DNA of 63,940 bases, the filler included, from Octopus bimaculoides (taxonomy: Eukaryota): assembly GCF_001194135.2 (NCBI RefSeq). It is 5 parts of 5 records of this genome, joined end to end, with 100 filler letters (N's around TTAATTAATTAA, not from the genome) between each part and the next. Parts side by side here need not be neighbours in the genome. Positions count along the whole stretch, not along the records: positions 1 to 7,789 come from NC_068991.1; positions 7,890 to 22,918 come from NC_068989.1; positions 23,019 to 53,896 come from NC_068981.1; positions 53,997 to 62,655 come from NC_068982.1; 1 more part is not named here. One strand, 5' to 3'. Below are positions 3,809-61,602 of this stretch, in pieces; the first letter of the stretch is position 1; each line of letters starts with the position of its first letter. The position numbers were made by a program, and so were the translations under genes. The notes below the pieces were generated by a model, which was not told the DNA's origin, ran no database searches, and was given only the letters and a program-made list of their open reading frames with translations.

Positions 3809-3900
3809 TTCATTAGCTTACATCTGTTTCTGCTAAAGGATGTGGTGGATTCTTAGTTGGATACCAGGATAACATCTCACAGCTTCATCAGAGCCTTGAA
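3809..3900 (-). ncRNA. Type I hammerhead ribozyme motif with 54-nt stem II insert
   Basis: Minus strand: TTCAAGGCT-CTGATGA-[AGCTG...TAGCA]-GAAAC-AGAT-GTA|AGCTAATGAA. Stem I GCU/AGC plus UUCA/UGAA; stem II GCUG/UAGC and GAUGU/ACAUC; closing pair is A-A rather than G-C. Confidence 0.65.
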
Positions 3901-4027
3901 TATGAAGCGGATTTTATTCGGAAAGTTATACTTTCAGAACATACAGGCGTCATGAGTCCACCACAGCTTATAGAAGGTTATTATAGCAGGTTCTACACCA
4001 GGTTGTTAGTCTCGCCTATACCTAAGG

Positions 4028-4166
4028 TGTGGTAAGAAACTTGCTTCCCAAACACATGGTTTCGGGTTCAGTCCCACTGCGTGGTACCTTCGGCAAGTGT
4101 TTTCTACTACTGCCTCGGGCCGGCTATAGCAAAACATAGTAGACGGAAACTGAAAGAAGCCCGTCT

Positions 4167-4219
<53 letters not shown>

Positions 4220-4428
4220 ATATTTATGTGTGTGTGAGTCTTTGTGTCTGTGTTTGTACCCCACTGTCACTTGATAACCGATGTTGGTGTGTTTATGTGC
4301 CCCGTAACTTAGCGGTTTGGCAAAAAGCAACCGGTAGAATAAGTACCAGGCTTACAAAGAATAAATTCTTGGGGTCGGTTTGTTCGACTAAAAGGCGGTG
4401 CTCCAGCATGGCTACAGTCAAAATGAAA
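4028..4428 (+). mobile_element. SINE family B (tRNA-like head, central TA/TG microsatellite, tail ...GCTCCAGCATGGC..CAGTC)
   Basis: GGTTCGGGTTCAGTCCCACTGCGTGG B-box-like head; collinear with copies at 43433-43832, 44855-45410 and 49240-49644. Confidence 0.85.
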
Positions 4429-4686
4429 GATTATACGTCCCTTTTACATACTACATCAGAAATCAATAAATCTAAGACAAGGAGCTATGCGTAAAGCAAC
4501 AACCCCTTCTACACACACACACAGTCAGTATGAACAGGGACCTATAAGATCGATAAATATTCTTCGAGTTTCTGCACGGTTCGTTAAAGAAAAATGGTTC
4601 CCGTTACTATACAGAGCTTCTCAATGCAGCGAACCTAGTTATGAAATCACTCACAAACACATGCATACATACGTGTGTTTGTGTGC

Positions 4687-4718
<32 letters not shown>

Positions 4719-5723
4719 ATGGTCTATATGTGTGTGTGTATGCATGTGCGTGAGTATCTGTATGAATGTGTGTATACTGACATATCGACATATATGTGTG
4801 TGCGTGTGCTTATACATCTATACGTATAATTCAATGCTTATACATACATGCAAACACGCACACACATACGCGAGTGCTTACGTACATATATATATATATA
4901 TANNNNNNNNNNNNNNNNNNNNNNNNNNNNNNNNNNNNNNNNNNNNNNNNNNNNNNNNNNNNNNNNNNNNNNNNNNNNNNNNNNNNNNNNNNNNNNNNNN
5001 NNNNNNNNNNNNNNNNNNNNNNNNNNNNNNNNNNNNNNNNNNNNNNNNNNNNNNNNNNNNNNNNNNNNNNNNNNNNNNNNNNNNNNNNNNNNNNNNNNNN
5101 NNNNNNNNNNNNNNNNNNNNNNNNNNNNNNNNNNNNNNNNNNNNNNNNNNNNNNNNNNNNNNNNNNNNNNNNNNNNNNNNNNNNNNNNNNNNNNNNNNNN
5201 NNNNNNNNNNNNNNNNNNNNNNNNNNNNNNNNNNNNNNNNNNNNNNNNNNNNNNNNNNNNNNNNNNNNNNNNNNNNNNNNNNNNNNNNNNNNNNNNNNNN
5301 NNNNNNNNNNNNNNNNNNNNNNNNNNNNNNNNNNNNNNNNNNNNNNNNNNNNNNNNNNNNNNNNNNNNNNNNNNNNNNNNNNNNNNNNNNNNNNNNNNNN
5401 NNNNNNNNNNNNNNNNNNNNNNNNNNNNNNNNNNNNNNNNNNNNNNNNNNNNNNNNNNNNNNNNNNNNNNNNNNNNNNNNNNNNNNNNNNNNNNNNNNNN
5501 NNNNNNNNNNNNNNNNNNNNNNNNNNNNNNNNNNNNNNNNNNNNNNNNNNNNNNNNNNNNNNNNNNNNNNNNNNNNNNNNNNNNNNNNNNNNNNNNNNNN
5601 NNNNNNNNNNNNNNNNNNNNNNNNNNNNNNNNNNNNNNNNNNNNNNNNNNNNNNNNNNNNNNNNNNNNNNNNNNNNNNNNNNNNNNNNNNNNNNNNNNNN
5701 NNNNNNNNNNNNNNNNNNNNNNN

Positions 5724-5770
<47 letters not shown>

Positions 5771-5844
5771 TGCATGTATGTATGTATGTATGTATGTATA
5801 TATGCAGTAATAGTACCTTAAAGTAAAGACTATTTGCCAACGTA

Positions 5845-6212
5845 GCAGTCCTGGATGGGACGATTGTTACTGTTGTTTAGTCCCAGGAAACGTCGTTTCC
5901 AGCTGGCTATACGGCACAGTATCTGTGTCCTTATATTTTCGAACAGGGGAGCTCATCAGCTCCATCCTGCACAAAGCAGCATCTGTGGACCAGTTTCTGG
6001 GTTATTGCCCTTTCTCAGCACACACTGCAGAATTGCCGTTCGAAAATATATAATTTTAAAAGTCACACGCACAGTTACTGATCTAATAAGTAGAAACATT
6101 ATTATTTCTAAATCTCCCAAAGAGAGATATTCAGTAACAGTACTTTACAGTAAAATCTATTTGCTAATATAATGTGGCAGTCCTGGAAGGGCCAAAAGTT
6201 ACTGTTGTTTAG
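5845..6212. repeat. 332-bp unit bounded by a 36-bp direct repeat (partial tandem of a repeat element)
   Basis: GCAGTCCTGGATGGGACGATTGTTACTGTTGTTTAG (5845-5880) vs GCAGTCCTGGAAGGGCCAAAAGTTACTGTTGTTTAG (6177-6212), 31/36 identical. Confidence 0.6.
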
Positions 6213-6369
6213 ATAGATAGATAGATAGATAGAAACATACATACATGCATGCATACATACATACATACATACATATATACATACATACATTTATGTGTGT
6301 GTAAATAATAAATATATACATATATTTATATATATATATATATACATACATTTATATATTGATATACAG

Positions 6370-6407
<38 letters not shown>

Positions 6408-6544
6408 CATGTATGTATGTATGTAAATGTATGTATGTATGTGCGTATGCATGTGTGTGGGTGTCTGTGCATGTATATATGTTATATATGCATATATATA
6501 ACTAATGGAGAGTATAATTATGTGTATTCGTTTGTATCTATATT

Positions 6545-6598
<54 letters not shown>

Positions 6599-7833
6599 CT
6601 AATGCATATCTGCATCGATACATTTGTATGCCCGTCTATAATGATATGTTGCGCTTATAAAGCGTTGTTGCAATCATATTTACATATGATATATATAATT
6701 TACACAGAAGATGTGCCTAAAATTCGCATCGTATGCGAAATAAATAAACCAGCATTCGATAGATGTAAACAAGTTCATTAGCCTACGTTCAACGTCAAGA
6801 TTTTTGTCTAGAATGTTCTACTTTAATACTACCTGTCTAATTTTTCTGGTGCACTCTACGTCTTAGCTGCCATAAACTTTGACACTTTTCTTGGAATTCT
6901 TCTACTCTAAAAATGCATTTCCATTAAGCTAAAGCTATATACTTATGCTTGTTCGGAAATCGATTTCTTTAGCTAATTCGCTTAACGAATCATCGCATAC
7001 TCTCAGTTCTCGCAAAATTACACTCTATTATTAGAAACCGTAGAAACACATTATTTCATCAATTTTGATATATTAACACTTACACGGCGGCTGTTTTTGA
7101 GGAAATTATGACAAATTTCGTTCGCAAATTCTAGTTATGAGCGTTATTTTTGTTATGTGAAATATATGTGAATGCCGCTAAATGTGTATGTATGTTTATG
7201 TGTTTGTATTGGGATATTTATTTTTGTATGCGCACACTTTATATGTACGTGCATATGTGTGTGTGAGGGTTGGGTGAATGCGGATATCGATCTTCTTATT
7301 ACGTATTTATCAATTCAAATATATATACGCAAATATTTGTATACATATACATACTTGTATGTATTTATGTGCATGTATATGTTAGAAATATATAGATAGA
7401 TATATATCTACGTACATATAGGTAGATAGATATCTTTTTATTATAGCCAAACAGGGCTAAATACAGAAAATGGACAAATTACAAAGTAGGGCTTTTGGGG
7501 GGGGGGATAATTTGGATCAAAAGGGATCGCGGGAAGAAAAAAAAACGTGGGAGGGGGCGATCAATAGGGATCGTGTATCACAGTCGATGTAAAAAACGGG
7601 GAACAGATTAGGTTTATCCGTGGAGAGAAAAGCCTACGGAAAAGACCACGGTCACCTCAGGCTTTTTTTTTTAAAGGTACATGAAAGTAAGTACCTTCTC
7701 TCTTTTTGTCTCTTTTTGTTACAAGTCTATGCTTAAAATGGTGTCGTCTTTCATTCTTACCATTCTTGCCACATTTACCCATTTTTTATNNNNNNNNNNN
7801 NNNNNNNNNNNNNNNNNNNNNNNNNNNNNNNNN

Positions 7834-7845
7834 TTAATTAATTAA
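7834..7845. other. Assembly gap linker TTAATTAATTAA flanked by Ns (also 22963-22974, 53941-53952, 62700-62711)
   Basis: Identical 12-mer with stops in all six frames, always embedded between N runs. Confidence 0.9.
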
Positions 7846-7889
7846 NNNNNNNNNNNNNNNNNNNNNNNNNNNNNNNNNNNNNNNNNNNN

Positions 7890-8300
7890 GCATAGAGGAG
7901 CTCCCAGGGGCAACCTGTCTTGAACTCCTCTGTGATTGCCTGGAGGACTATGGTAAATAATAGGGGGCTGAGGACGGAACCTTGGTGGACCCCTACCTCT
8001 ACCCGGAATTCATTGCTGTACTCATTTCCAACCCTCACCTTACTGGCAGCATCTCTGTACATGGCTCGCACAGCTCTCACTAACCATTCTTCTATCCCAA
8101 GTTTCCTCATTGACCACCAGATAAGGGATCGGGGGACCCTGTCAAAGGCTTTCTCCATGTCAACGAAAGCCAGGTACAGAGGTTTATCCTTAGCTAGGTA
8201 TTTCTCTTGCAACTGTCTCACTAGAAATAAGGCATCAGTAGTGCTTTTACCTGGCACGAACCCAAACTGCACGAACCCAAACTGCATCTCATCTAAATTG
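7890..8300 (-). mobile_element. RTE-clade LINE reverse transcriptase fragment
   Basis: Uninterrupted frame QFGFVPGKSTTDA...LAFVDMEKAFDRVPR...GVHQGSVLSPLLF...CPWELLY, ending at a gap just before the YADD motif; 15-bp in-frame tandem duplication (QFGFV x2) at 8254-8283. Confidence 0.93.
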
Positions 8301-8615
8301 ATGTGTGTTTGAAACAATTGCAAAGCACTTGATATTATTAATGCTGAGAAGAAAAAAACATGGAAATGTTACTGGAAGAGGTTACTGAATGTGATGAATC
8401 TAGTAGATCCAATAGTGAAACCAGGGCCGTCGCTAAACCCCGGCAACCCCTGTGGTCACAGGGGGCCTCCACGGTTGAGAGGCCCATGTTACCAGACTTC
8501 AAAAAATAAGTACTGGGCTCAATTCATTCGATTACAAATTTATTCAAGGTAGTACCTCAGCATGGAGGCAGTCTAATGACTGAAAAAGTTATATATATAT
8601 ATATATATATATATA

Positions 8616-8818
8616 CAGGGTGCAGCAGAAGTAGTGCCTTTTTTGCATTTAATAACTTTTATAGTATATAAATGTTTATTAAGTAATTTTTTTATTGAAC
8701 ACAAATTTATTGCATTGCTTAAAGAAATGAATAATAAACTAATGAGAAAAATTGCAAAGGTTTTAGGAAATAAAAAAGAAATTCAATTAGAAAAGGATGT
8801 TACTTCTGCCACACTCTG
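8616..8818. mobile_element. 203-bp Tc1/mariner-type MITE inserted in (TA)n
   Basis: TIRs CAGGGTGCAGCAGAAGTA / CAGAGTGTGGCAGAAGTA (15/18), TA on both flanks, no coding capacity. Confidence 0.75.
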
Positions 8819-8891
8819 TATATATATATCATAGTATTGACAAGGCCATTAGATACTATTACACACCATTGGTCACAATGTACTTCCAATT

Positions 8892-9107
8892 CTAAGGCGG
8901 TGAACTGGCAGAAACGTTAGCACACCAGGCAACATGCTTAGTAGTATGTCGTCTGTCTTTATGTTCTGAGTTCAAATTCTGCCAAGGTTGACTTTGCCTT
9001 TCATCCTTTCGGGGTTGATAAATAAAATACTAGTTGTATACTGGAGTCAAGCTAATCGACTGGCCCCGCTACCCAAAAATTTTGGGCCTTGTGCCTAGAT
9101 TAGAAAA
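8892..9107 (+). mobile_element. SINE family C with TSD (central domain resembles Meta/MESC type)
   Basis: Head AAGGCGGTGAACTGGCAGAA...GAGTTCAAATTC; central GCCTTTCATCCTTTCGGGGTTGATAAA; flanking repeat CAATG(T/C)ACTTCCAATT at 8876-8891 and 9108-9123. The Meta/MESC label is from memory of the consensus. Confidence 0.8.
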
Positions 9108-9518: not shown

Positions 9519-9565
<47 letters not shown>

Positions 9566-13280: not shown

Positions 13281-14309
13281 TTTTTATTCCTAATAACTGC
13301 TTGGAGCTAATGCTGCTATATTTATCCTAACCAGGCAGTCCAATAGCAGAACTCAGTCACTAATGTTGACTGTAAACTGTTCATATATGTATGTGTATAT
13401 ATATATAAAGACAGGTATAGGAACAACAAGCAAGTGTACAAGTTTGACACTTGGGAAAAATGGGAAAATCTTTTACATTTTGAGCCTATGCTCTTTGACA
13501 GAAAGGAATAAGAGGAAATAAATAGAGAGAGAATGAAAATAAAACATGTATAGTTCAGCAATGATGAGTTTCTTTCAGTTTCCACCTAATGAATCCATTC
13601 ACAAGAGGCTTTCATCAACTTGGGGCTATAGTAGAAGATACTTATCCAGAGTGTTCTACACACTGGGACTGAACCTGAGACCACATGGTTCACAGCCACT
13701 CTTGCACCCATAACGAAAAGAAAAGCTTGTTATTGTCATTGTCATTACTTTATGTCCACCATCCATGCAGACATAAGTTGGAAGGTCATCACCGTCTGAA
13801 TTAGTTCATATTAGAAACACTACTCCCATATACTGGTGTTCATCCATGTCATCTGACAAGGTTTCTATGGTTTAATACCAAGAGCATATATTCCAGATGT
13901 GCTAGGTGTGTGTGAAAATGGTAAATTCATTATAAATATTAACCATACTCATTAATTTAATCACAAATCTTAATGGAAAACTTTTGGTATACCCCTGCTT
14001 GAAATTTGGTGCCATTTGATATGGCAGCACACCCATCGCAACAACCACCATATGCCACTGCTTGATACCCTTTCTATCGCCAACTATTTTACAGAGTGTA
14101 TTGAATGTATTTTCTCATGTCACTAACACTGAAGTGGTTTGAATAATCTTTGATAAAACAGCACTATATGTACCTTACAATTGTATGCTTTCTCTGCATT
14201 TACCATGTGTACCACATATTTTTGTGGCACCAACATAAGAATGGGAGTGCTTTGTATTCAGTAACTGTAGAGAGTACGAAGTAACCAAAGAGTGAGGAGA
14301 GGAATAACT

Positions 14310-17603: not shown

Positions 17604-17684
<81 letters not shown>

Positions 17685-17743
17685 ACCGTTGACTGAACAC
17701 TATTCAATTTTTTTTCTCCGTGTTTTTCTCCTTGTCTCCGTAT

Positions 17744-17780
17744 TCTTTCTGTTGAAGAGCGTAGCTCGAAACGTCAAAGA
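17744..17780 (+). ncRNA. Minimal type I hammerhead motif (PLE-type, dimer-type stem III), core variant A6U
   Basis: TCTTT-CTGTTGA-A-GAGC-GTA-GCTC-GAA-ACGT-C|AAAGA: stem I UCUUU/AAAGA, stem II GAGC/GCUC, palindromic ACGU, GUC triplet. Confidence 0.6.
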
Positions 17781-17902
17781 CTTTCCGTATTCCCGAGCGT
17801 CATACTAATATATACTTTTGTTATTTACACCACCTGTCCTCGTCTGTTGTTATTATTTGTATATTCTCCTATATATATATACATACATACATACATACAT
17901 AC

Positions 17903-19247: not shown

Positions 19248-19575
19248 TATACTACAAGATATCTCATTTGATGCCCCAACAATTCCATTGTAACAGAAAG
19301 TAACGGAAAGTAACGGAAAGTAACGGTCCGTCAGATCGATTATTATCTACCTATCTACCCATCTAAACCATTGTATTAATTGACCAGCCAGCGATATCGC
19401 ATACGGTGGGGTGCTGTAGCTGGTGGTGGCAGCAGGAGCAGTGACAATTATTTATTCACTCATTTACTCAATTATGTAAACCAATGATAGCTAGGTAGAG
19501 TTATTAACCTTAGGACCATACCCTCCCTTATTATCCCTATAGTAATTAACGCCCCTTGTTTTAACTGAACTGAGA

Positions 19576-19612
<37 letters not shown>

Positions 19613-20664
19613 NNNNNNNNNNNNNNNNNNNNNNNNNNNNNNNNNNNNNNNNNNNNNNNNNNNNNNNNNNNTTTTTTTATTTATTTATCCTTATTACTAT
19701 TATTATTATCTGCTTATAGTCTTCTTAAAAGTCTACCAATTTAATTCTATTGTCATTTCATTAAGAATTTTACCCCCTCAGTGTGAGTATAAAGTTGAAT
19801 TAAGAGATGTGTGCTTGTGCGCGTGCATGTGTATATACATACATGCACGCATGAGTGTGAGTATGGGGAGATATACATAGCATGTGTGTGTGTGGGGGGT
19901 GTACGCAAGCAAGCTAGTACTAGCATCTTAACCGGTTAGTGTCTATCCAACCGTAGCTAAGCGTAGACAGTTTAAAACAATAGTTGCCCAATTGGAAGGA
20001 TGGAAGTTAACAGTAGTAATTAACCCTCCCCCACTAGCAGCAGAATGGTCGAGCTGTTGGAAGAAGCAACAGGATATCCTACACCGTAAAGTTTGAAAGT
20101 TTGGCATATTATTATTGTTGTTGTTGTTGTCATCATCATCATCACTGTTATTGCTACCAGAACATTAATAACTCGTGTAAAATGAACTTCCACATAGACC
20201 CTTCCAAAATATATAGAAATGACACACACACACTCAGCAAAACTTCCTTTTTAAAAAACACTTACAGTTTTCTAGATACGGCAGTGGTGGAATGCCTGTG
20301 TATAAATACTTGTATATATACACATGTGAGTAAGGGAACATCCGAGTAAGGTTATGCACATGAACCCACACACATATATATATGCATTGGAGTGTCTAGA
20401 GCTATTTATAATGTTTGTAGGCTCTTTGTGTGCCTTATATTTTTAAGGGTTTTTTTTATATACTTTTACATTTCTCATATGCTATACTTTCATTTTTCAT
20501 TTATGTATTTTTTATTATTATTATTATTTTTTCCTGCTGTACCCTTATTTTTAATTTTATTTTTTATTTTTATTTCTATCTTATTTTTGCTATTGTTTTT
20601 GTTTTTGTCTCTACTACACCTCTGTTTTTACCTCTTGCTCTATATTTGTATGAAACCCTTTGTG

Positions 20665-20793
20665 AATCTCTGAAGAGGCCTAGCGGTTCGGGCATGTAAC
20701 CCCATTTCAACATGTCATCCGAGAATCACTCCGGCAAGAAATATTCGGATAGAATGGGGCATGCTAAAGCTAGGCCGAAACAGCTGTAAGATT
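20665..20793 (+). ncRNA. Intact type I hammerhead ribozyme with 100-nt extended stem II
   Basis: AATCT-CTGAAGA-GGCCTAGC...GCTAGGCC-GAAAC-AGCT-GTA|AGATT. All core nucleotides are canonical, with G10.1-C11.1 and a 5-bp stem I. Stem II helices are 8+5+7+6 bp. Stem III ACAGCUGU is palindromic. Predicted cleavage after 20788. Confidence 0.88.
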
Positions 20794-22233
20794 AAACTTC
20801 TGTTCATTCTCTAATTTCTTATGTACTTTGTACTTCTATATGTAAACCCGGTTGGCAAAATAACATGGTTTGTCATAAACACCTGTACTTTGGTTTTTTC
20901 TATTTTTGTCACTTTAGCTATGAATTAAATTAATGAATTCAATGGGATACACTGTCTGCAAGTAGTGAGGTTCAGCATATTATCCTCCACATGTCAGTAT
21001 GTATGTATATGTGTATATATATATACATATCCATCTATGTATCACACTTAATGTAAATACAATGCAAAAACCAAGTTTACAGCCGTATTCATTCAGAGAT
21101 AATATCTCTTATGGATGGGTTGTGTTTAAAAATACAATATTTATTGGAAGGTGACAAAAATCGTCCCAGCAGTGGCTAGTGAAAACAGTAGATGCATTTC
21201 TGCTTCATTGAATGCTGTCAATAGCATGTATTTACAGTCAACTGCATGCTAAAACAAAATCTGTTGCTACTGATATGTAGGAAAACAAAGAATAAACAAT
21301 CACTGGTATTGTGAAGAGCTGCCTGGCTGAATAAAAATCTGGTATATGTGAAAGAAGCAGTATTAGAGTAAAATAGCCATCTATTAAATTATGCATGTGT
21401 GTGTCATCATGACGCGTGACAGTGGTAAATAAGAGTCACCATCATACAAATTGTGCAGCTCATTTCAATTCCAGTCTTCCGTGGAAAGGAAACATGGTCA
21501 CTGGAAACAAGTGAGGATCGGTAAGAGGAAGGGAATGTAGCAGTAGAAAATCTACTTTACTGACACAGATAGATAGACAGACAGACAGACAGGTGGATAG
21601 TCATCATCGTCATCATCCTCATCATTTTGCATTCACTTTTCTTGTTCACATGGGTTAGACAAATTATTATAATCCAAGTCAGTTTTTATTCAGAATTGTA
21701 GCCCTTCTAGATAGGTCAGAGAACCACATCACATTCATATATTCCAATTTTGGCATGATTCAAGAACTGGATGTTTTTTCTGACACCAGCCACTTTACAG
21801 AATGAACCGACTGCATTTTATCATGGTACCAACATGAGTGATTCCAAGCACATAAAATACAACCTTTCTCATTGTAAGTTTGTGTCGAATTACATTGAAG
21901 TGTCAAGTATCTAACAAGTGCAAGTGCACAAGTGACAAAGTAAAGTTAGCCACTTAGTAGAGTGCTTGAAGTTTGGTATCGATAAAAACAGAACAGACTT
22001 TTTGATCAACTTGATATATCACATGTTACTGTTCAGAGCAGGAGAGTGAATACATTTAGTTTAGAATCCCGGTGAAAAGACTTGAACTATAGTCAGATCA
22101 CATGGTCTTTCTTTTGCGGTAGCAATGAAAATAATTCATAGCTTCTCAGTAGTGTTCTGATCATGCACATAGAAAGTTTGTAACTGTGGTAAATTTGTGA
22201 ACATCATATTCCTATACACACTCTCATTCATAT

Positions 22234-22560
22234 GTTGTTGTTGGCACTCTGTCGCTTGCGACGTCGAGGGTTCCAGTTGATCCGATCAACATAACAGCCT
22301 GCTCGTGAAATTAACGTGCAAGTAGCTGAGCACTCCACAGACAGTGACACAGTGTGACAAGGCTGACCCTTTGACTTACAGGTACAACAGAAACAGGAAG
22401 AAAGAGTACAGCAGGGTTCGCCACTATCCCCTGCCGGAGCCTCGTGGAGCTTTAGGTGTTTTCGCTCAATAAACACTCACAATGCCCGGTCTGGGAATCA
22501 AAACCGCGATCCTATGACCGCGAGTCCAATGCCCTAACCACTGGGCCATTGCGCCTCCAC
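22234..22560 (-). mobile_element. SINE family A, full length with TSD
   Basis: Head GTGGAGGCGCAATGG, tail (CAA)n; TSD TCTCATTCATAT at 22222-22233 and 22561-22572. Confidence 0.9.
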
Positions 22561-22617: not shown

Positions 22618-22811
22618 TATGTATTTTTATTAAAGCTGCAAAAACATCACAAAAAACTGTTACTAACAGTTTCACATATCCATTTGTCGGACAGTTGCGA
22701 TCAAAACTGTTACACAAAGTTTCACATTCCCAGTCTGTCCAATGAACGGGAATATGAAACACTGAGTAACAGTTGTTTGTGATGTTTTTGCAGCTTCAGT
22801 AAAAAAGCATA
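22618..22811. mobile_element. Inverted pair of PLE-type terminal repeats carrying decayed HHR motifs
   Basis: About 60-bp inverted arms. HHR-like CTGT-CCAATGA-ACG-GGAA-TAT-GAAAC-ACTGA-GTA|ACAG (+, 22735-22772) and CTGT-CCGACAA-ATGGATATGT-GAAAC-TGTTA-GTA|ACAG (-, 22657-22694), plus a partial third copy at 22707-22731. Confidence 0.6.
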
Positions 22812-23018
22812 TTACTTTACCTCTTGTATTCGAGTACTATTTTTTCCACCTTGTTTTGCATTTGTGCTTACTCATTTATTTTTGTATGTATGTACAAAAA
22901 TACATATGTAATTATATANNNNNNNNNNNNNNNNNNNNNNNNNNNNNNNNNNNNNNNNNNNNTTAATTAATTAANNNNNNNNNNNNNNNNNNNNNNNNNN
23001 NNNNNNNNNNNNNNNNNN

Positions 23019-24727: not shown

Positions 24728-25740
24728 TCAATTCTGTTGTGGTGGGCTGGTCTTCTTGCATACAGCAATGCACCACCTATCTTGATCTTCTATCATCTTC
24801 GTAAGGCTCAGTATTTTGAAATCGGCCTTCAGCACCTCATCCCATGTTTTCCTGGGCCTCTCTCTTCCACATCTTCCCTCTACTTTTATTGACCAGCACT
24901 TCTTAATACAACTGTCCTCATCCATCTGCCTTACATGACCAAACCAGCACAGTCTCCTCTCTTGCACACTGCATATATTTCCTCTTATGCCCAACTTCTC
25001 TCTCAATACACCAGCACTCTGTCACACTGACATCATACATCCAGTAAAGCATACCAGTTTCATTCCTACCCAGCCTTCACATGTCCTCTGCATTCAGATC
25101 CCACATCTCACTTCCATGCAGCATCACAGTTCAAACACAAGCATCATACAATCTTCCCTTCACTTGGAGAGAGAAAATTTTGGTTGCCAACAGAAGTAAA
25201 AGCTCTCTGAACTTTCCCTATCCTATTCTTATTCTAAAAATTACACTTTCTGTACAATCCTCTCCACTGTTAATTAGGTCACCTAAGTCACAAAACTTCC
25301 AGAGAGCCACCTGGACATATTTTTGGAAATCAGTTTCCCTTGTATCTGTGGTCTTTATGGCTTCCATACATCTACATGCAAACATTACTTTCTCTGTTAA
25401 CCTTCCTACTAGTCCAATGCATCTCTTGTGTGTCCATAGCTTGCACTGGGTATACCAAATGAAATTTCTGCCAACATCCTTCCTACATATCATGTTGGGC
25501 CATTTACTGGAAAGGTCCTGTCTGATTTCTTACTTACTAGGACCCAGGTCTTTGCTAAGTTTACTTTAAGATTCTTGGATTCCAGGTTTTGTTTCCACAT
25601 CTAGAATTTCTTTTCTAATTCTGTTACAGATTTTGTTAAGAGGGTAAGTTCATCAGCATACAGTAGTAGTTCTCATGGGCTTCTAGTCTTAAATTCCTTT
25701 GTTAGGGCCTGAAGGACAATGGTAAGTGGGAGGGGACTGA
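24728..25740 (-). mobile_element. Decayed RTE LINE (YADD region to C-terminus)
   Basis: ICRKDVGRN...CKLWTHKRC and MREKLGIRG...QERRLCWFGHVRQMDEDSCIKKC...RPRKTWDEV; multiple frameshifts. Confidence 0.85.
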
Positions 25741-28121: not shown

Positions 28122-29820
28122 CCTCTATGCTGATGACCTTGCTCTAATAGCCGAGTCACTGCCAGAACTAGTGATGAAGTTTAATTGTGTGGAAGCAAGG
28201 TCTAGAATCGAAGGACCTTAGGTTTAACCTAGCAAAAACCAAAGTCTTAGTAAGTAGGAAGGCGAACACATCACAAACTCCTTCAAGTAGATGGCCCTGC
28301 TCGATCTGTAGAAAAGGCGTGGGTAGGTACTCCATTGGAGGTACCCGGTGTAAGCTATGGACACATAAAAGGTGTGGCAATATCAAAGGAAGGTTAACTG
28401 GGAAGATAGTTTTTGTGTGTGGCAGATGCACAGGGGCAATAAACACTGAAAATGTACAGAAAACAGATTCCATCACATGTCAGGAGGAGAAACTAGAGGT
28501 AATTAATAGCTTCCGCTACCTAGGTGACCAAGTCTGTAGTAGGGGTGGTTGCTCTCAGAGTGTAGAGGCTAGAATAAGAATAGTCTGGGTAAAGTTCAGG
28601 GAGTTCCTACCTCTGCTGGCAACTAAGGACCTCTTGCTCAGGATGAAAGGTAGACTGTATGATGCATGTGTGTGAATTGCCATGCTACATGGCAGTGAAA
28701 CATGGGCCATGACTGCTGAGGACATGCGTAAGCTTGAAGGAAATGAAGCTAGTATGCTCTGCTGGATGTGTAATGTCAGTGTGCATACTAGACAGAGTGT
28801 AAGCACCCTGAGAGAAAAGATGGGCATAAGAAGCATCAAATGTGGTGTGCAAGAGCGACGATTGCATTGGTATGGTCATGTGTTATGTTTGGATGAGGAG
28901 ACCTGTGTGAGGATGTACCACTCCCTAACTGTGGAAGGAACCTGTGGAAGAGGTAAACCCAGGAAGACATGGGATGAGGTGGTGGAGCATGACCCTCGAA
29001 CATTGGGCCTCAAAGAGGCAATGACAGGAGACTGAGACCTTTGGCGATATGCTGTGATTGAGAAGACTCTGCAATTAAAGTAAGATAGCAGCCGTTGCTG
29101 ATGTCAGTGTTGCATGTCCGACCTGTTTAAGAGTACCTGCTGATGTGTTGGGCGATATGATATGCTTGAGAAAACCTGTTGAGTCAAGTAAAACCAAAAT
29201 CGTAGCTGTGGCCAGTGCCCCCTGAATAGCTCCTGTTCCAGTGGCATGTAAATTGTCATTCGAATGCAGTTGATGCCAGTATCCCCTGGCAGGCTCCAGT
29301 GCCGGTGGCACGTAGAAAGTACCACCTAAATGTGGTCGATGCCTGGTCCACCTGATTGGCTCCCGTGCTGGTGGCATGTAAATAGCACCATCCGAATATG
29401 GCCAATACCAGTTCCCCTTGACTGGCTCCTGTGCTGGTGGCACATAAAAAACACTATCCGAATGTGATCAATGCCAGGACCGCCTGACTAGCCCCTGTGC
29501 TGGTAGCACGTAAAAAGCACCATTTGAACGTGGCCAATGCCAATACCCACTGACTGGCTCCCGTGCCCATGGCACATAAGCATTATCCAAACATGATCGA
29601 TGTCAGGCCTGCCTTACCGACTCCTGTGCCTGTGGCATGTGAAAAGCATCCACTACATCCTCGAAGTGCTTGGCGTCAAGAAGGGTATTAAGCTGTAGAA
29701 ACATATCCAGATCAGATTGGGGCCTGGCGCAGTCACTGGCACTCCAGACCTCAGTCAAGCGGTCCAACCCATGCCAGCATGGAAAGCAGATGTTAAACAA
29801 TGGTGATAATGATGATGATG
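28122..29820 (+). mobile_element. RTE LINE 3' half (LYADDL to C-terminus) with 3' UTR minisatellite and (GAT)n tail
   Basis: LYADDLALIAES...FNLAKTKVLV...PCSICRKGVG...CKLWTHKRC...FRYLGD...LHGSETWAM...RLHWYGHV...KPRKTWDEVV; a few stops and frameshifts. Confidence 0.92.
29211..29655 (+). repeat. About 66-bp minisatellite, 7 units, inside the RTE 3' UTR
   Basis: Units start at 29211, 29275, 29341, 29407, 29473, 29539 and 29602; shared core CTCC(T/C)GTGC..GTGGCA(C/T)GTAAA. Confidence 0.88.
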
Positions 29821-33706: not shown

Positions 33707-34956
33707 GGTCATCCCATAAATAATGCAGTTGTTTCAATTGCATGAACTAAAAGTCAGAAGAGATTAACTACCTGCATCAACTTGCTATAAAAGCACGTAG
33801 TAATTTTACCTTGTCCTTATTCTTAGTGCAAGTTTTGATGAGTGCAGTTCGATTTTAACAGTTATTTTTTCAAAGCTATAATGGAAGTGACACAGGAACA
33901 TATTCGGCATATTTTGCTTTATGAGTTCAATAAAGGCAACAGTGCAATGGAAAGTGTGAGGAATATTAATGCAGTACATATGTATTGGACAATAAGCATA
34001 AGCCAGTGTCAATGGTGGTTCCAGAAATTCCGAACTGGAAACGACAGCCTAGAAGATGAGCCTCATCCTGGGAGATCTATAGAGCTCAATGAGGACATCC
34101 TGCAAACTCTGGTGGGACAAAATCACATTGTAATTGTTGAGGAATGAACAGAAAAGCTTGGATTCATTGACACCTGTGTGCCATCAAAAAAGTCAGCAAA
34201 TTGGGTCGATGGGTTCCTCACAAACTTTCTGAGTCTAATCGCATGCAGAGAGTGAATGTGTGCTCTTCTTTGCTGTCACGTCTCACAAATGAACCTTTTT
34301 TTGGACTGAATAGTGACTTGTGATGAGAAATGGGTCCTCTATAAAAATATCAAGCACTGAAGACAGTGGGCATGGAAAGGAGAAACACTGATACCCCAGG
34401 TTAGAGAAGGTCTTCACCCACATAAGGTGTTGTTTTCTGTTAGGTGGGATATGAAAGGTTTAATCCACTTTGAACTTTTAAACTCAAAGCAAACGCTGAC
34501 AAATGAGATCTACTCTGAGCAGCTTAAGTCGGCGCTAGAAGAAAAACAACCATCTTTGGTTTTAAGACAAAAGGTGTTCTTCCATCAGAATAATGCTCAG
34601 CCACATACAGTGAGAGTGACATTCCAAAAGTTGGAGCAGTTTGAATGGGAAATGTTGCCCCACCCACCATATTCACTGGACATTGCCCCATCTGATTATC
34701 ATTTATTTCACAGTCTTCAAAATCATTTGGATGGAAAAATATGAATTCTGTAGATGAGGTCAGAAAAGTATTGGAGGAGTATTTTTCATTACGGACAAGT
34801 GAATTTTGGAAGAGGGGCCTTGCAAGTTTACCAGTTAGATGGAAGAGCATTGTAGAAAATGAAGGAGAGTATATTTTAGATTAAAAAAGAACTTTATCTT
34901 AATTTTGAAAAATAAAAGGAGTATAAAAATACTGCATTATTTATGAGGTGACCCAA
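33707..34956 (+). mobile_element. Near full-length DD34D mariner, transposase pseudogene 33881-34884
   Basis: 23-bp TIRs GGTCA(TC/CC)(C/T)CATAAATAATGCAGT; MEVTQEHIRHILLYEF, TCDEKW, HQNNAQPH (D to N), HPPYSLDIAPSDYHLF with 34-residue spacing; stops and frameshifts. Confidence 0.93.
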
Positions 34957-51024: not shown

Positions 51025-51105
51025 GTAGTATTAGTAGTAGTAGTAGTAGTAGTAATAATAATAATAATGGTGATGATAATAGTAATAATAAGTAATAATA
51101 ATAAC
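50993..51105. repeat. (TAG)n/(TAA)n microsatellite
   Basis: Direct reading. Confidence 0.9.
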
Positions 51106-51116
51106 TGCAAACATAA

Positions 51117-51252
51117 ACAGACTGTATATGAAAAGAAAGAATGGTGGCAGAGGACTGATTAGTATAGGCCATTGTAGAAGGAGTGAAAGGAGAACGCTTG
51201 CCAATTATTTGATAAATAGTGATGAAGATATGCTGCAATATACTGGGACCCA
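51117..51252 (+). mobile_element. Short R4/Dong-like fragment
   Basis: MKRKNGGRGLISIGHCRRSERRTLANYLINSDEDMLQY, closely similar to 57660-57790. Confidence 0.75.
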
Positions 51253-51839
51253 TATTATTATTGATAATTTTAAATGCTATAGGCAGAATGATGGTGGTAA
51301 TGATAATCACTTTGGTTATGCAGGCGACACACTGCAAGCATGTTATTTATATATATGTGTATGTACATACATGTGCACGTGTATATACAAATAAAAAGAG
51401 GAAAAGAGAGATGGGATCTCAATAACAACTCTTTTGGGACCCCCATAAACGACTCATGAAATCATGATGCAACACAAGGAAAGAATTAACGGCGTGAATG
51501 AAGCTATAGCCGATCATAGTGAAGGTTTCCCGCCTGGCACGTCCGAAACCACCCACATCAAGGGCAGTGATCTGGCCTTGGACAGTCGTTATATCACAAC
51601 AGATCACATACATGGTGTGTGCAAAAACAGATATAAGTGAACAAAAGAATAGTACGATACACTTATTGAATGTCATGAAAGAGCAAAGCTGGAAAGAAGT
51701 TATAGAGTAGGCCAATGTACCTTGAAATTTTGGATGGAAAAGGACATGTGTCCAATGTCTGAAAATAAACTAATGAACTAAGTGAGTGATTAGGAGGAAG
51801 GGTTACTTAAATGGAGCAGCAATATCTTGGATTAGTGAG

Positions 51840-53640
51840 AGTCTGAGAGACCCTGCAGATGGGGTACAAAGGATGGTCGGAGTTGAAAACAGAGGTAGGA
51901 GTTGAAAGTAAAGAGAAGAATAGACAGGAGGAACAGAGGAATGGTGATGGAGCTGTTAAGGATGAGGAATGGGAATGTTATACAGTGAACCCTGATTCTG
52001 TGGTGGGTGGACATGCAGGGGAAAAGAACCAACTAGATAATGAATTGCTTGAAATTCAAAGACGGATGACTCACCGACTTGATGAAAGCTCCAGAAGAAA
52101 AAAATCCCTATGAATATGAGAAGGGTAGATAGGAGTATGATAAATAAAGTAACACAAAAGATAAATATTGTCATACATACATCCAGACGGAGGACATAGC
52201 ACAAACAAGGAATCTTCTCCAAGCTATTGCGCTACTTGTTGAAGAGAAATTATAACTTAGAACAAAAAATGGTGGAGCAAAAGAACCATGGTGGAAACGA
52301 CACATTGAAAAGGACATAATGCGACCAAGGCAAGATTTAAGGAAAAAATTGAGCAATGGTTAAGAGGAAACTGGAAAAATGGGAAAAAGACAAACTGAGA
52401 AAAATTAGAGAAGAAATATAAAATACGGAAGAACGGGTTTGATGCAGTAATAAAGTAGTTAAAACAGAGGATCATGGCAAAAAGTCTGAAGATCAGAAGA
52501 TTTGTGAACAGAAAGAAGCAGTTTGAGGAGAACAGATTGTTCAAAAATAATCCAAAGTAATTCTTCTGAACATTAGGAGATAATGGGGAAAATGTTGCTC
52601 CTGATGCAAATCAAGCCAAGGAGTTCTGGAGCAGATTATGAGGAAACAATGTGATGCATAAAAAGGATGCCATGTGGATAGGAAATATCAAGACAGAATT
52701 ACAAGGAGGAAAGAAACAAAGGAATATTGCTATAAGCACGGGTGATGTGAAACAAGTGGGTAAAGTGCCTAACTGGAAAGCCCCTGGACCAGATGGGATA
52801 CATGGCTTCTGGCTGAAGAGATGCCATGCGGTGCATGAAAGGCTTACAGCCCAATTGAATGAGTGTGTCCAGAAAGGTACAGTCCCCGTGTGGGAGGACA
52901 ACACTTATAATGAAAGATAGAAGAAAGGGGGAATATTGTAGGAAACTACCGTCCCATAGCATGCCTAAACATAATCTGGAAGATACTCACTGGAATATGT
53001 GCGGCAAAGACATACACTTTCTTGGCACAGGAAGAAATACTACCAAAGGTACTAAAAGGATGTAGGAAGAGTTCTCAGGGTATCAAGGATCACCTGGTCA
53101 TCGATAAAAAAGTTTTGAGGCATTGTAAAAAACATACAAACATGTCTATGGCTTGGATTGACTTTAAGAAGGCATATGATGTGATGCCTCATTCTTGGAT
53201 TGTTGAATGCCTGCAGATGTTTGGAGTTGCTGACAACATCACAAATTTTCTGATGCATAGCATGAAAGAGTGGAAAACCAAATTGTACTCAAGTAATGTA
53301 TTCCTTGGAGAAGTTAATATTAAAAGGGGATTCTTCCAAGGTGACTTATTTTTTCCATTACTTTTTGCAATTGCACTAATACCCATAATAATGACACTTA
53401 GGAAAGTTAAGATGGGTTACTGATGTGGGAAGAAAGGCCCATCATTGAAATTGTGACTTGAAATTGGGAAATCTGAAAAACAGATAGATTTCTTAACCAA
53501 AACTCTCCAAAAGTGTGGTAGGGACATCGGTATGGAATTTGGGATTACCAAATGCTCAGTACTTAATATGAAAAGAGGGAAAAAAGCAGCCTGCAGAGGA
53601 TTGCAGTTACCATCAAGAGAGACCATAGATGAACCTGATG
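51840..53640 (+). mobile_element. R4/Dong-like RLE non-LTR retrotransposon relic (N-terminus plus RT)
   Basis: KEPWWKR, WKAPGPDGIHGFWLK, NYRPIACL, KDHLVIDK, AWIDFKKAYDVMPHSWI, IKRGFFQGDLFFPLLF, GMEFGITKC; cut off by an RTE tail at 53645. Confidence 0.85.
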
Positions 53641-53644
53641 GTAG

Positions 53645-55488: not shown

Positions 55489-55490
<2 letters not shown>

Positions 55491-55552
<62 letters not shown>
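55491..55552. repeat. (TAA) microsatellite, about 20 units
   Basis: Direct reading. Confidence 0.95.
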
Positions 55553-55555
<3 letters not shown>

Positions 55556-56699: not shown

Positions 56700-58345
56700 A
56701 GTACATAATTGAGCCAGGAGGAGGAAGTGGACCAGCGAAGAAAACAGGATAGTGATACAGGGGTACTTAGAAAGTGAAACTAATAGAACCGGCTACAGAA
56801 AACGGATGCTAAAACTTTGGGTAAAAAAGGATATGTTTAATGTGTCTGAGCAGAGATTAGTTGAAGCTAAGAAAGTGGATGAGAGAATTGGAGGCAGTAC
56901 AAGTCACAAGAGAACTGGAAAAAGAGGAACAGGTAGTGGGAATCACAAATAATAATATAAGAGATACAACTCAAACCAAAGAAGAACCTAAAGGAAAAAA
57001 TAATAGTAGCGATATCAATAAGAAAGGGACAACAGGCACCAACGACTTATATGATTCAAATGAGGAAGGTCAGGAGACATTTTAGCCAAGTTGTTGGTGC
57101 CTTATAATGTTGGCAATATTTTTCTTACTTCTTTATTCATTAGTAAAGAAGTAAGAAAAAGATTGCCAACATTATAAGGCACCAACACAAGGAAACTACA
57201 AGAAATAAATAGGAAAGTAGACTGTGTTATCAGTACGATAGATACCAAAAAACATACAAGATACGAACTTTTTGATCTATGCAAGCAGAGTAGTAGTCAC
57301 TAGAAGATTAGATATCTCACAGGGAAAGATTTAAAAAGGGCAAATGTGGAAAAGGAGTCTAGAAAATAAAGTGAAGATTTTAAGACAAGATCTGAATCGA
57401 ATAAAAGCCTGGAAAATAAATAAGGTAGGAAACACAAGATGCAAATCTTGTCTCAAGTAAAGATACTTAGTCAAAGAGAAACGATTTGGGTCAATAATAG
57501 TAGAGTTGAAATCGAAAAATTTGAATACCGCAATGAATATCTGGGCAGTTACGGTGGTCAGATATAGCGCATTCATCCTCAAATGGACTAAGGAGGAAAT
57601 ATCAGAAGGATGAGAATGTTGAGGACCTACATGGAGCGCTACACTCTAAAGCAAACGTAAACAGACTGTATATGAAAAGAAAGAATGGTGGCAGAGAACT
57701 AATTAGTATAGACCATTGTATAAGGAGTGAAAGGAGAAGGCTTGCTGTGTATTTGATAAATAGTGCTAGAGACCTGCTGCAATATGCTGCGAAAGATATC
57801 GGGGTAAATGCAGATGAAATGATGAGCAAGGAAGACTTTAACCAAAGAGGTGAGAAGAGAAAAGAACACGTTGAAATGACAACGGATGGACAGTTTGAAA
57901 GGAATACACTAGACATTAAGGATAATACAGCATTTTGGGAATGGCTTGAGCGAGGTGATTTGAAGAGCATCACCGAAAGCCTGATCATTGCTGTACAAGA
58001 CCAGGCTCTCGCTACCAATTCAGTAAAGTATAACATCTGTAAAACCTCTGATACCCAAAAATGCAGACACTGTGGAAAGAGTGTGGAAAATGTGACCTAC
58101 TTGGTAAGTGGATGTGAGAGCCTTGCACAAAAAGAATAAAAACGCCGCCGCAATAAAGTGTGTATCTTCATTGGCTCTTATGCTGTCAATACCAATATGA
58201 AGTAACAGAGAGCTGGTACGAGCACGTAGCAAATAAAGTTATGCAGGAGGATGGAGAAGTAACGATACTCTGGGACTATGATTTTCAGACGGTTCGTGTA
58301 ATCGAATACCGTCGGCCTGATATTGTCATATTGGGTAAGAGACAA
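56700..58345 (+). mobile_element. Second R4/Dong-like relic: N-terminus joined to post-RT, CCHC and RLE regions; RT core missing
   Basis: GYRKRMLKLW...SEQRL; AMNIWAVTVVRYSA; WLERGDLKSITESLIIAVQDQAL; CRHCGKSVENVTYLVSGC (CCHC with H to Y); WYEHV...ILWDYDFQT..IEYRRPDIV. Confidence 0.85.
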
Positions 58346-58547
58346 ATTGTCCAAGAGTTTCTGCTACCGCTTCTGGAATATCTGAGCACTGATGACTTTC
58401 CAACTTTTGCGAATTCACTGTTGCTAGTTGTGGGATGATTCCAACTGCCGACTAGATCACCTGTACAGCATCAACTCTTGATCCGCCCAATTTGCACCAA
58501 CAAACATTATGTATATGAGTATATGCGTGTGTGTGTGTGAGTGTGTA

Positions 58548-58618
<71 letters not shown>

Positions 58619-61551
58619 GCATAAATATACACGTATGTGTGTGTGCGTGTATTTTTCTCTTGATATTCATATATTTACGCCGAATAATATGGTCATATTT
58701 AATATTCAAAAAATTTCATCTAATGTGTCTTTTTTCCTGTATTTCATTAATCTCTTGAATTAAAAATTTATATGCTAGGACATTCTACGTATATTCAACA
58801 TGTTTGAATTCCTCGTTTTCTATCTATGAAGACTCTATGTATAGTTCTGTAAATACAATAATATCTTCCTTCATTCTCTTCAATTTAATTTACATTTTCT
58901 CTGTCACATTGTTTTATTTTATAATTTATTCCTCTAATCTGTTATCACCAGAGTAGTCGCAAAATTGATTCTGTTTATTCGATTAACAACGATAAAGAGT
59001 GAGACGATTTTTCTATTTTGTTGAAGAGATGGAATTCCAGGATATATAATGTAATAATTATCTAATGTTTAATCTAATATACTATACAAACATTTTGTTA
59101 TAATTTCGTTATTTTTATTTGTAATTTTCGTTTATTGCTCTGTTTCTTCGTTTAGTTTTGTGGATGAACACTGTCGTAAGAATGGGTAACGTATTTTTGC
59201 ATCCGTTCGAAACACAGTCATGAAATAGAAGAAGAGAAGAAGAGAAAGCTTTGGAATAATTATTATATCGTTTGCTGCCTCGAGTTCGAGTGCCGTTAAA
59301 GTCAAATTTCTATATATTTTGTCGATATAGGAAACGTGTCCGTTGACAGAACTTGTTCGTCGGGTGAGAATACTTTGGGTATTGTTTGGTTTTTCTTTTT
59401 AAATTTCCAACTGCGAAACTAGCAAAAACACTTTCGTTTTATTTTTGACAAGGGCCGCTCCGTCGAGAAATGAATTTGGACAACTGTTGGTCCTAACAAT
59501 GAATATTGCTTGCGGCTGCATTTGAAGGGTATCCTTTCATGTTCAAAATAACAGGGTTTCCAAACTGACGGAATCTACGAATTGCGATGGCTTCATTACA
59601 ATTGTTTAATGCACTAAACTATATTGTAAAGCACAAAACAATTGCAATGAAAACGACGGCTACGTTGGTATTAACACATGTTAAAGTAAACATTAAGATA
59701 ATAATACTTTTAATAACTAATAGTGAATTCAGAGAATTCTATTTATATACTGGTCTTTTTATATCATCAAATCATAGCATTTTAACAAAGTAGTAATGCG
59801 TTGCCATATTAGTGATAAGAGAATATCTATGTAGACGTGCAACGAAGTACAGAAATAGGTGTTTTCAGTATATATCTAAAAATGAGTTTAATTAATATGG
59901 AACTACCAGTATGGAGGCACTGATGTTAGCGTTACCGATTATATTTTGACTCTTAACACAGGTAAGATCAGTGCCCGTGACACGTTTGCAAGCTTTTCCA
60001 AGCTGGTTGGAGGGAGGTAGACATCTCAAAATGGAGAATGTTTGCAACAGAGATCACTACGCTAAAGTCACTGGATGTGCAAGGTGGTGGCGTCAAATCG
60101 GGAGATATTAACGTCTTCCAACAAAGTTGACCATAGCAGTATACGAAATCAAAAGGCAAAATTCAAGGGCAAATAACCGAAAGTGTCCAGTCCTACGGTC
60201 ATACATTTTCCTCGATCCATCACCTCAGACTTGTTTTGTTTGTCTGCCTTGTATCGATGAAATGCATATTTCGCCTCTGGGACTCAACCCGCTGTAAGCA
60301 GAACTATATACTACCAGGTATTCTATTTGGTATTCTAACCATCTTTCAGATATATCATCAGATGAGCTGGGTGAGAAGTTCTGCATTTTAGTACAGTGTC
60401 ATAACAGACTTATCTGCACCGTAATTGTGACACAATGGTTCACATCGATTTGCTATATATTTTCATGGCATGAGAATGCTAGAGATTGTTGCGCCATGAA
60501 AATGTGTTCATCTAATATCCAGGTGGCACATACGAGTTTGTACGCATACGTGCGTGTGTGTATGTGTGAGTGAATGTATTTCATGTTGTGTCGGTATTTT
60601 GCGAATACTCTGTGGTGGATAGGAGTTCTCTATTCTGCATCGTCTACTACCTGAGTGGCGCATAGAAAAATGAACGATATTTTTTTAGTTTACGTCATTA
60701 GATTTGTAACATTTTTGCCCAGAATAAACGATACGAGGAAAGTGATCATGCTCCTGAAAAAAATTGTAGATTTTGCTAAAACTCAAATCAACTCTGATGC
60801 AGCAGTGACATCCTTAATCACCTTATTCCTTCTGGTACTAGTACGAGTATGTTTGTGATTTTGTAAGGTTATTATACATTTGCAGTTAATTAGCGTAGCT
60901 TTACAGATAAAATTACATTTTATATACACTCAAGTTCCTCAGAATGATTTGATAGCCAATACTAGAAATCACCACATTAATCACATTATGGATGAATTAA
61001 TTGCTAAGCGTTTTGACGTAAAGTAACATTATACACTATAAGAAGCAATTTGGGATATAAATTTACTCTAACAAGATATGTCGTTATCAACTACATTAAA
61101 TGTTCTAATACAGATAACATATCAAGATTTAAAAGTTGACAGGATAAATAGACTTAGGTAGTTATCATGCGATACTAGGGCTGTTTATTTAATTGGTAAC
61201 GCACTTGTATGTTATAGTATACATGCGTTGTTCCATAACACTCAAGTTTTCCTAGTTTCTAGTTTCAACTTTATATTATAACTACAATTATTTTTACAAT
61301 GCTGTGAGAGATTACTGGCGAAATCTGTGCGATTAAAAATGATATCAATGTGTGTCGTATCTGTGCAGTATCTTCTATAAATAATTGGAATTCTCCCATA
61401 TATTATACAAAAAAAAAATAAATTCATCTAACTTACTGCTAAAAATTTCCAATTATTTATGAAATATGCTCCTGGAAATATATTTTATAAAGGGAATAAA
61501 CAAACGCTTGGATAGGAAAAAAAGATAAATATCTTTTCTGTGTCATAAATA

Positions 61552-61602
61552 TTCAGGGGACCGGTTTCTCGGTTTCCGGGGACAATGTATTCCCCATCTG
61601 AA
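61552..61602 (-). ncRNA. Decayed hammerhead motif downstream of the PLE ORF
   Basis: Minus strand: TTCAG-AT-GGGGA-ATACATTG-TCCCC-G-GAAACC-GA-GAAACCGGTC|CCCTGAA. Stems I and II, ACCGGU palindrome and GUC are present; CUGANGA box partly deleted; GAAACCG duplicated. Confidence 0.5.

What the first reader, a model, noticed from the sequence alone, without database searches (positions are those of the whole stretch)
3809..61602. Window-wide hammerhead system: at least four structural variants in 64 kb
Seen: HHR-topology motifs at 673-699, 3809-3900, 17744-17780, 20665-20793, 22657-22772 (2-3 copies) and 61552-61602. Stem III palindromes differ (ACGU, ACAGCUGU, ACCGGU) and stem II ranges from about 10 to 100 nt. 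Established: Penelope-like elements carry type I HHRs in their terminal repeats, often minimal with palindromic stem III acting as dimers, and metazoan retrozymes are non-autonomous HHR-bearing retroelements. Inference: this genome hosts several high-copy non-autonomous HHR elements mobilised by PLEs such as the GIY-YIG relic at 62 kb. I cannot confirm novelty, but descriptor searches with short stem II limits would miss the long variants.
Basis: partly seen in the sequence, partly recalled or inferred. Interest (0 to 1): 0.72.

Follow-up and report, generated by a model that had tools for sequence, protein, structure and literature searches.

The report
Penelope retroelement tail-end hammerhead variants
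Four of the six reported motifs are hammerhead-ribozyme-shaped sequences from high-copy repeat families, likely the broken-off tail ends of Penelope-type jumping genes in what is probably an octopus genome; this is a known arrangement, but one family has a 100-base arm and another has a changed catalytic letter in thousands of copies, and cutting is untested.

Summary
Partly confirmed; mostly a known phenomenon. The window is five unrelated stretches of a 2.34-Gb animal genome, so it is not one locus. Four motifs are type I hammerheads of high-copy repeat families: 20665 (A, 100-nt stem II), 3809 (E, 54 nt), 17744 (B, minimal) and 22625-22805 (C, fold-back). 61552 is the tail of a tRNA-type SINE with no hammerhead core; 673 has no stem I and no second copy. 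A lies 2.6-2.7 kb behind a Hydra-clade Penelope ORF. B lies 0.3-0.9 kb behind the Neptune-type endonuclease family of the 62-kb relic (10 of 29 loci). So A and B are truncated ends of autonomous PLEs, not retrozymes; the masters of C and E were not found. A Hydra-clade hammerhead is already published for Octopus bimaculoides. Not found in print: stem II up to about 100 nt, and a U at core position 6 in family B (8,530 exact copies, 53 with A6). RNA-seq shows transcription but no read ends at either cut site. The scan reported similar elements elsewhere in this genome.

The parts
20665..20793 (+). Family A type I hammerhead: 100-nt stem II, 8-nt palindrome ACAGCUGU, predicted cut after 20788
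   Evidence: 40 of 40 scored genome matches 93-100% alike, 915 first-look candidates
19326..20989 (+). 5'-truncated 3' UTR and end of a Hydra-clade Penelope-like element (family A); assembly gap at 19613-19671
   Evidence: shared 3' end and variable 5' ends; same-strand Hydra-type endonuclease upstream in L164/L290, L234, L163, L215/L295
3815..3895 (-). Family E type I hammerhead: 54-nt stem II with an A.A pair at its base; decayed copy (shared stretch 3957-3802)
   Evidence: 1,356 first-look candidates, copies 80-86% alike; master not found
17744..17780 (+). Family B minimal hammerhead with U at core position 6, palindrome ACGU, predicted cut after 17775; element 17684-17868
   Evidence: young subfamily, several copies about 99% alike
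13408..13557 (-).
   Evidence: nhmmer E 2.9e-20
22625..22805 (.). Family C fold-back: two inverted hammerhead-bearing arms (+ 22734-22772, - 22696-22655) and a partial third (- 22734-22703); all window cores damaged
22806..22860 (+). One-sided tail of the family C insertion
   Evidence: tail on exactly one arm in 20 of 23 loci
62115..62655 (-). Broken relic of a Neptune-type PLE ORF (linker and GIY-YIG endonuclease); its family ends in motif B
61520..61624 (-). 3' part of a tRNA-type SINE; not a hammerhead (rejected)
673..699 (-). Core-like match without stem I or relatives; unsupported

Best explanation
The four real motifs are type I hammerhead folds in high-copy repeats that are likely the 3' ends left by 5'-truncated insertions of several endonuclease-bearing Penelope-like elements: Hydra clade for A, Neptune type for B, and likely Hydra clade for C and E. 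Reverse transcription would start just downstream of the ribozyme and usually stop early, often adding an inverted second copy, so most insertions keep only the ribozyme end (inferred from copy structure and from the literature). In a full-length transcript two ribozyme copies would pair through the stem III palindrome and cut after the NUH triplet, probably slowly or with help from the element's protein (inferred, untested). Stem II length appears free to vary. Solitary and fold-back copies such as those in the window are predicted to be inactive.
For: A: same-strand endonuclease 2.6-2.7 kb upstream in L290 and L234, and RT+EN between an A-type end and A-type UTR in L215/L295; inverted A copies directly before truncated ORFs in L163, L194, L221, L222. 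These ORFs carry RWK, DKT, CxCX5C, CxxC and CxH, the Hydra diagnostics of PMC8557442 (section read). B: 283-908 nt downstream, same strand, in 10 of 29 relic-like loci with 1.5-kb flanks; the ORF has a CX4CxxC linker and cysteines between GIY and YIG. C: variable centre, one-sided tail in 20 of 23 loci, TA-repeat flanks, as in PMC8557442 Fig. 2 legend; topology matches Hydra-2_aMil in File S2. Across families, unrelated stem II sequences still pair: 23 of 30 at z below -1.65, and stem I of 3 bp or more in 21 of 30. The double-hammerhead fold of A (-91.9) beats two monomers (-85.6).
Against: No pile-up of read ends at 20788 or 17775 in 3 RNA runs (about 6% of each read), and no junction at either site among the joints shown. 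Covariation within family A is weak: 2 of 27 pairs, covariation term +0.5. No ORF is tied to C (8 further 10-kb loci) or to E; the RT after E in L136/L292 may be a separate insertion, as diverged Hydra ORFs also abut A in L291 and L293. The double-hammerhead folds of B (-9.5 vs -16.0) and of the window's E copy (-25.6 vs -28.8) are less stable than two monomers. Pfam recognised none of the 7 PLE ORF pieces; clade calls rest on motifs, not on a tree.
Confidence: 0.8

Rival explanations
1. They are non-autonomous retrozyme-like elements that spread through small circular RNAs and borrow PLE proteins.
For: Most copies are short and lack an ORF; no master found for C or E; PMC7229834 describes such elements in mussels (passages) and a 2026 preprint derives them from PLE ends (part 1 of 5 read).
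Against: A and B are linked to ORFs. No direct-repeat pairs in 30 A, 30 E or 30 ACAGCUGU-class loci; 2 of 30 B loci (one place fetched twice). 5' ends vary continuously. No junction at the cut sites among the joints shown.
Confidence: 0.12
2. Family B's hammerhead is a dead relic: the founder lost A6, and the element kept spreading because cleavage is not needed.
For: A6C lowered a hammerhead's rate in 0.3 mM Mg2+ from 0.30 to 3.6e-6 per min (PMC7151607, passages); hammerhead mutants did not affect insertion by the Anolis PLE in vitro (PMC11167929, passages); dimer fold unfavourable; no read ends.
Against: In 29 copies not chosen by the motif, positions 7 and 17 (free in hammerheads) are the most variable of the motif while the other core letters hold; mean identity 0.89 in the motif vs 0.77 upstream, but 0.85 downstream, so the contrast is modest.
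Confidence: 0.45
3. The motifs are chance matches in AT-rich repetitive DNA.
For: Holds for 61552 and probably 673; the relaxed descriptor was tuned on the data.
Against: 8,530 and 1,090 genome matches against 0 for reversed patterns; 2 vs 0.05 in shuffles; fixed position behind PLE ORFs.
Confidence: 0.02

Closest known systems
Hydra-clade PLEs and their hammerheads, including Hydra-1_Obim of Octopus bimaculoides (Craig et al. 2021, PMC8557442, Files S1, S2)
   Same: RWK, DKT, CxCX5C ORF motifs; type I hammerhead at the 3' end; 8-9-nt stem III palindromes (acag..ctgt, actc-n-gagt); unpaired letters at the base of stem II; TA-repeat targets.
   Different: Listed Hydra hammerheads have loop 2 of 3-10 nt and elements are generally under 3 kb; family A has a 100-nt stem II and a 2.6-2.7-kb 3' UTR (about 5.7 kb in all, estimated). 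The longest entry in File S2, PLE-X1_sMoe (9-bp stem, 35-nt loop), equals family E in size. A, C and E differ in sequence from the Hydra-1_Obim motif.
Minimal hammerheads of metazoan PLEs, e.g. Acropora digitifera Neptune (Cervera and de la Pena 2014, PMC4209133)
   Same: Family B: U-rich upstream, extra A after A9, G10.1-C11.1, 4-bp stem II, GAAA-CGU-H.
   Different: U at position 6 in the great majority of copies; that paper's core variant is U3-A8 and its descriptor requires cuganga.
Metazoan non-LTR retrozymes (PMC7229834; bioRxiv 10.64898/2026.07.22.740005)
   Same: Type I hammerheads, high copy number, relation to PLE ends.
   Different: Those are tandem units of 150-450 bp expressed as circles; here copies are single or inverted, variably truncated, and two families have their own ORF.
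Natural position-6 variant Bcep176 (A6C) (PMC3088659; PMC7151607)
   Same: Pyrimidine at core position 6.
   Different: A single phage example with C6; here U6 in thousands of copies of an animal retroelement.

Membership tests
Type I hammerhead | Core CUGANGA, GAAA, NUH with stems I-III | tested here: met
   A and E in the window; C in the family majority with C at position 4 (30 of 45 arms)
Type I hammerhead | A at core position 6 (family B) | tested here: not met
   53 A6 matches against 8,530 family matches; U6 in 26 of 29 copies
Type I hammerhead | Core present (61552) and stem I present (673) | tested here: not met
Type I hammerhead | Stem covariation | tested here: inconclusive
   weak within A (2 of 27 pairs); pairing kept across unrelated families (23 of 30)
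Type I hammerhead | Self-cleavage at NUH | not testable with these tools
   needs an in vitro assay; standard RNA-seq showed no read-end pile-up
Hydra-clade PLE (family A) | RWK, DKT, CxCX5C linker, CxxC and CxH in a C-terminal endonuclease | tested here: met
   L231, L216, L218, L219 translations against PMC8557442 section 11
Hydra-clade PLE (family A) | Hammerhead 3' of the ORF on the same strand | tested here: met
   L290, L234, L166, L300
Hydra-clade PLE (family A) | Short element (generally under 3 kb) | tested here: not met
   3' UTR alone is 2.6-2.7 kb; a typical trait, not a diagnostic one
Hydra-clade PLE (families C, E) | Linked RT/endonuclease ORF | tested here: inconclusive
   none tied to C; ambiguous neighbour for E in L292
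Neptune-type PLE (family B, 62-kb relic) | CX2-5CxxC linker, cysteines within a C-terminal GIY-YIG domain, hammerhead downstream | tested here: met
   10 of 29 loci
Neptune-type PLE (family B, 62-kb relic) | RT phylogeny (Neptune vs Nematis) | not tested
EN+ PLE insertions | 5' truncation, inverted second copy, one-sided tail | tested here: met
Non-LTR retrozyme | Head-to-tail tandem units | tested here: not met
   no tandem repeat over any motif in the window
Non-LTR retrozyme | Circular RNA | tested here: inconclusive
   no junction at the cut sites among joints shown; libraries not made for circles

The most novel reading that the evidence does not exclude
A Neptune-type element has spread to more than 8,500 copies, across subfamilies about 20-25% apart, with a hammerhead that keeps U at position 6 and is still under ribozyme constraint: a natural conditional ribozyme that cuts only with the element's protein or with another metal ion. 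In parallel, Hydra-clade elements use stem II as a free insertion site of up to about 100 nt, hiding thousands of hammerheads from published descriptors.
Probability: 0.3. Interest if true: 0.55.

Novelty: new variant of a known kind. Interest (0 to 1): 0.33.

Why it matters
The role of PLE hammerheads is open: they cut poorly in vitro and were dispensable for insertion in the one reconstituted element (PMC4209133; PMC11167929). Family B offers a natural test, a very successful element with a core change that usually cripples cleavage, beside sister families with A6. Families A and E show that descriptors capped near 25 nt of stem II undercount PLE hammerheads (1,090 exact hits for one palindrome class at 26-56 nt alone). 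The association itself is known, so the gain is incremental unless U6 activity is shown.

Tried and rejected
Rfam scan: no hammerhead family, only microsatellite-driven miRNA matches below the gathering scores. DNA search with B: nothing, common words are skipped; replaced by a pattern search. 61552 as a hammerhead or as the relic's end: rejected. 673: only the self match. Two C copies 2.26 kb apart looked like element ends but are a local duplication of host DNA. Search for masters of C and E in fetched loci: none tied. Run search: no RNA holder listed; raw-read runs were added by species label. Pfam on PLE ORF pieces: nothing above cut-off. Unconstrained cofolding did not return the double-hammerhead fold as the minimum for A or B. 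Look-ups of earlier findings by sequence for A, B and 61552: nothing. Lunse et al. 2017 on PLE hammerhead variants is not held, so I could not check it for U6 or long stem II; supplement file 1 of PMC4209133 was not searchable, and File S7 of PMC3088659 (inactive variants) was not read. Genome-wide counts for stem II above 56 nt and for family C were not obtained.
Full report
Setting. The window is five stretches joined by spacers. The genome has 2.34 Gb; the stretches with motifs map to C11 (673, 3809), C9 (13408-22805) and C2 (61552, 62 kb). An octopus is my inference from size, microsatellite content and repeat types. Co-occurrence in the window therefore reflects genome-wide density, not a locus.

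Observation. A strict type I descriptor finds 2 sites (20670, 3891) against 0.05 in 60 dinucleotide shuffles; a relaxed version, tuned on the data, adds 17749 and 22690. Rfam finds none. Family A: 40 of 40 scored matches are 93-100% alike, from 915 candidates; its fold has z -3.2. Family E: 1,356 candidates, 80-86% alike. Family C: 1,297 candidates. Candidates are not copy numbers. Family B: 8,530 exact matches to a 21-22-nt pattern, 0 for the reversed pattern. The class CUGANGA-N26-56-GAAACAGCUGUA has 1,090 exact matches against 0. In 30 distinct hits from the first 30 loci, 23 have a stem II more stable than mononucleotide shuffles (z below -1.65) and 21 have stem I of at least 3 bp, although the stem II sequences belong to several unrelated families. 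Stem II lengths in all fetched loci run from 12 to 105 nt with modes at 29, 49, 54 and 100; this sample is biased by my queries.

Two motifs fail. The 61552 stretch aligns with the 3' end of 4 of 4 other matches, three of which begin with tRNA-like A and B boxes (read by eye); none has a core there. The 673 motif has no stem I and no relative.

Family A is a PLE end. Thirty copies share a 3' end near 20989 and differ in 5' extent, several with inverted partial copies. Walking upstream reaches a GIY-YIG-type domain. The ORF carries RWK, DKT, YRDD, CxCX5C, CxxC and CxH, the Hydra features in PMC8557442 section 11. The hammerhead lies 2.64 kb (L290) and 2.75 kb (L234, a 74%-alike variant) behind the endonuclease, and further in L166 and L300, which carry insertions. 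L215/L295 has an A-type end, RT, endonuclease and A-type UTR in order. Many of the 40 endonuclease-centred 10-kb loci show no A end, consistent with truncation, gaps or other families. Covariation within A is weak: 2 of 27 pairs in 16 sequences.

Family B and the 62-kb relic. The relic has 150 scored relatives from 4,162 candidates. In 10 of 29 fetched relatives motif B follows 283-908 nt downstream on the same strand; the 61552 motif occurs in 0 of 29. B matches the published minimal consensus (PMC4209133, parts 1-2 of the text and supplement file 2) except at position 6. Only 53 matches have A6, and the 10 inspected sit in flanks of different subfamilies, so U6 is the family state. Of 48 profile hits in loci not fetched by the B pattern, 29 span the motif without N (one place counted twice; two are diverged sister families with A6): position 6 is U in 26; position 7 is U15, C9, G4, A1; position 17 is C8, U9, A9, G2, gap 1. 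This fits continued constraint but does not prove it, since the downstream flank is nearly as conserved (0.85 vs 0.89).

Families C and E. C is a fold-back whose centre differs between copies, with a tail on one arm only in 20 of 23 loci, the PLE insertion signature (PMC8557442 Fig. 2 legend). A transcript across it folds into one long hairpin (z -11.8), which would block the ribozyme. The family majority has C at position 4, and its G5A and G8A changes fall on CpG sites. E occurs singly or in inverted pairs (6 of 30 loci, one place twice). Both resemble Hydra-clade hammerheads in File S2, but no ORF was tied to either.

RNA. Three raw RNA runs (one study, about 6% of each read) cover A and B with reads in both orientations. 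No pile-up of starts or ends appears at 20788 or 17775, and no joint there among those shown (48 joints not shown). Reads come from many copies. Such libraries also missed the cut in Anolis, where cleavage was shown in vitro to need the protein (PMC11167929, passages), so this is weak evidence.

Mechanism. Shown: the folds, copy families, ORF linkage for A and B, truncation and inversion. Inferred: internal priming downstream of the ribozyme, dimer pairing through the palindrome, cleavage. The designed double-hammerhead is favoured over two monomers for A only.

Novelty. The association is known, and Hydra-1_Obim with its hammerhead is published for O. bimaculoides (supplement rows). Searches for hammerhead + A6U, hammerhead ribozyme + octopus, core variants, Terminons + stem II, terminon + hammerhead and long or extended stem II found no report of U6 or of a 100-nt stem II in PLEs; these were judged from listings, and a 2026 octopus repeat paper has no mention of hammerheads (passages). 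A6C is known from a phage (PMC3088659 and PMC7151607, passages), and a 53-nt stem II from a spike-moss PLE. Lunse et al. 2017 could not be read and may cover such variants. The published descriptor would miss A, E and B. Earlier notes of this scan on other pieces of the genome reach similar readings; I consulted them after forming mine.

Verdict. Real but largely known: PLE ends with hammerheads, with two apparently unreported structural variants. Interest 0.33.

Noticed in passing
window 7896-8368 (-), 52914-53423 (+): Reverse transcriptase relics (Pfam RVT_1) of LINE type; further LINE-like ORF pieces at 25218-25529, 28178-29035, 51092-51394, 57537-58139.
   Followed up: partly
window 33842-34744 (+): Mariner transposase relic (HTH_48, Transposase_1).
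   Followed up: no
window 22206-22560: A repeat with RNA depth 20-40 times that of family A in three runs; the window copy lacks a 36-nt piece at 22343 seen in most reads.
   Followed up: no
window 29273-29579: Tandem array of 66-nt units.
   Followed up: no
window 57092-57187: Near-perfect 44-bp hairpin; not examined.
   Followed up: no
L225, L226, L227, L228, L293: Further Hydra-type families with their own hammerheads behind the endonuclease (ACGUACGU, ACAGCUGU, ACAUAUAUGU palindromes; stem II 22-59 nt).
   Followed up: partly
L218, L219, L231: The Hydra-type ORF has long asparagine-rich insertions between RT and endonuclease.
   Followed up: no
L165:5833-6493: A Neptune-type endonuclease relic runs directly into a truncated Hydra-type endonuclease: one PLE inserted in another.
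   Followed up: no
L291, L292, L293: Diverged Hydra-type ORFs lie directly beside A or E ends, suggesting PLEs insert next to each other.
   Followed up: partly
L171:9172-9879: Intact single-frame Ras-family small GTPase ORF near a PLE relic (family named from recall).
   Followed up: no
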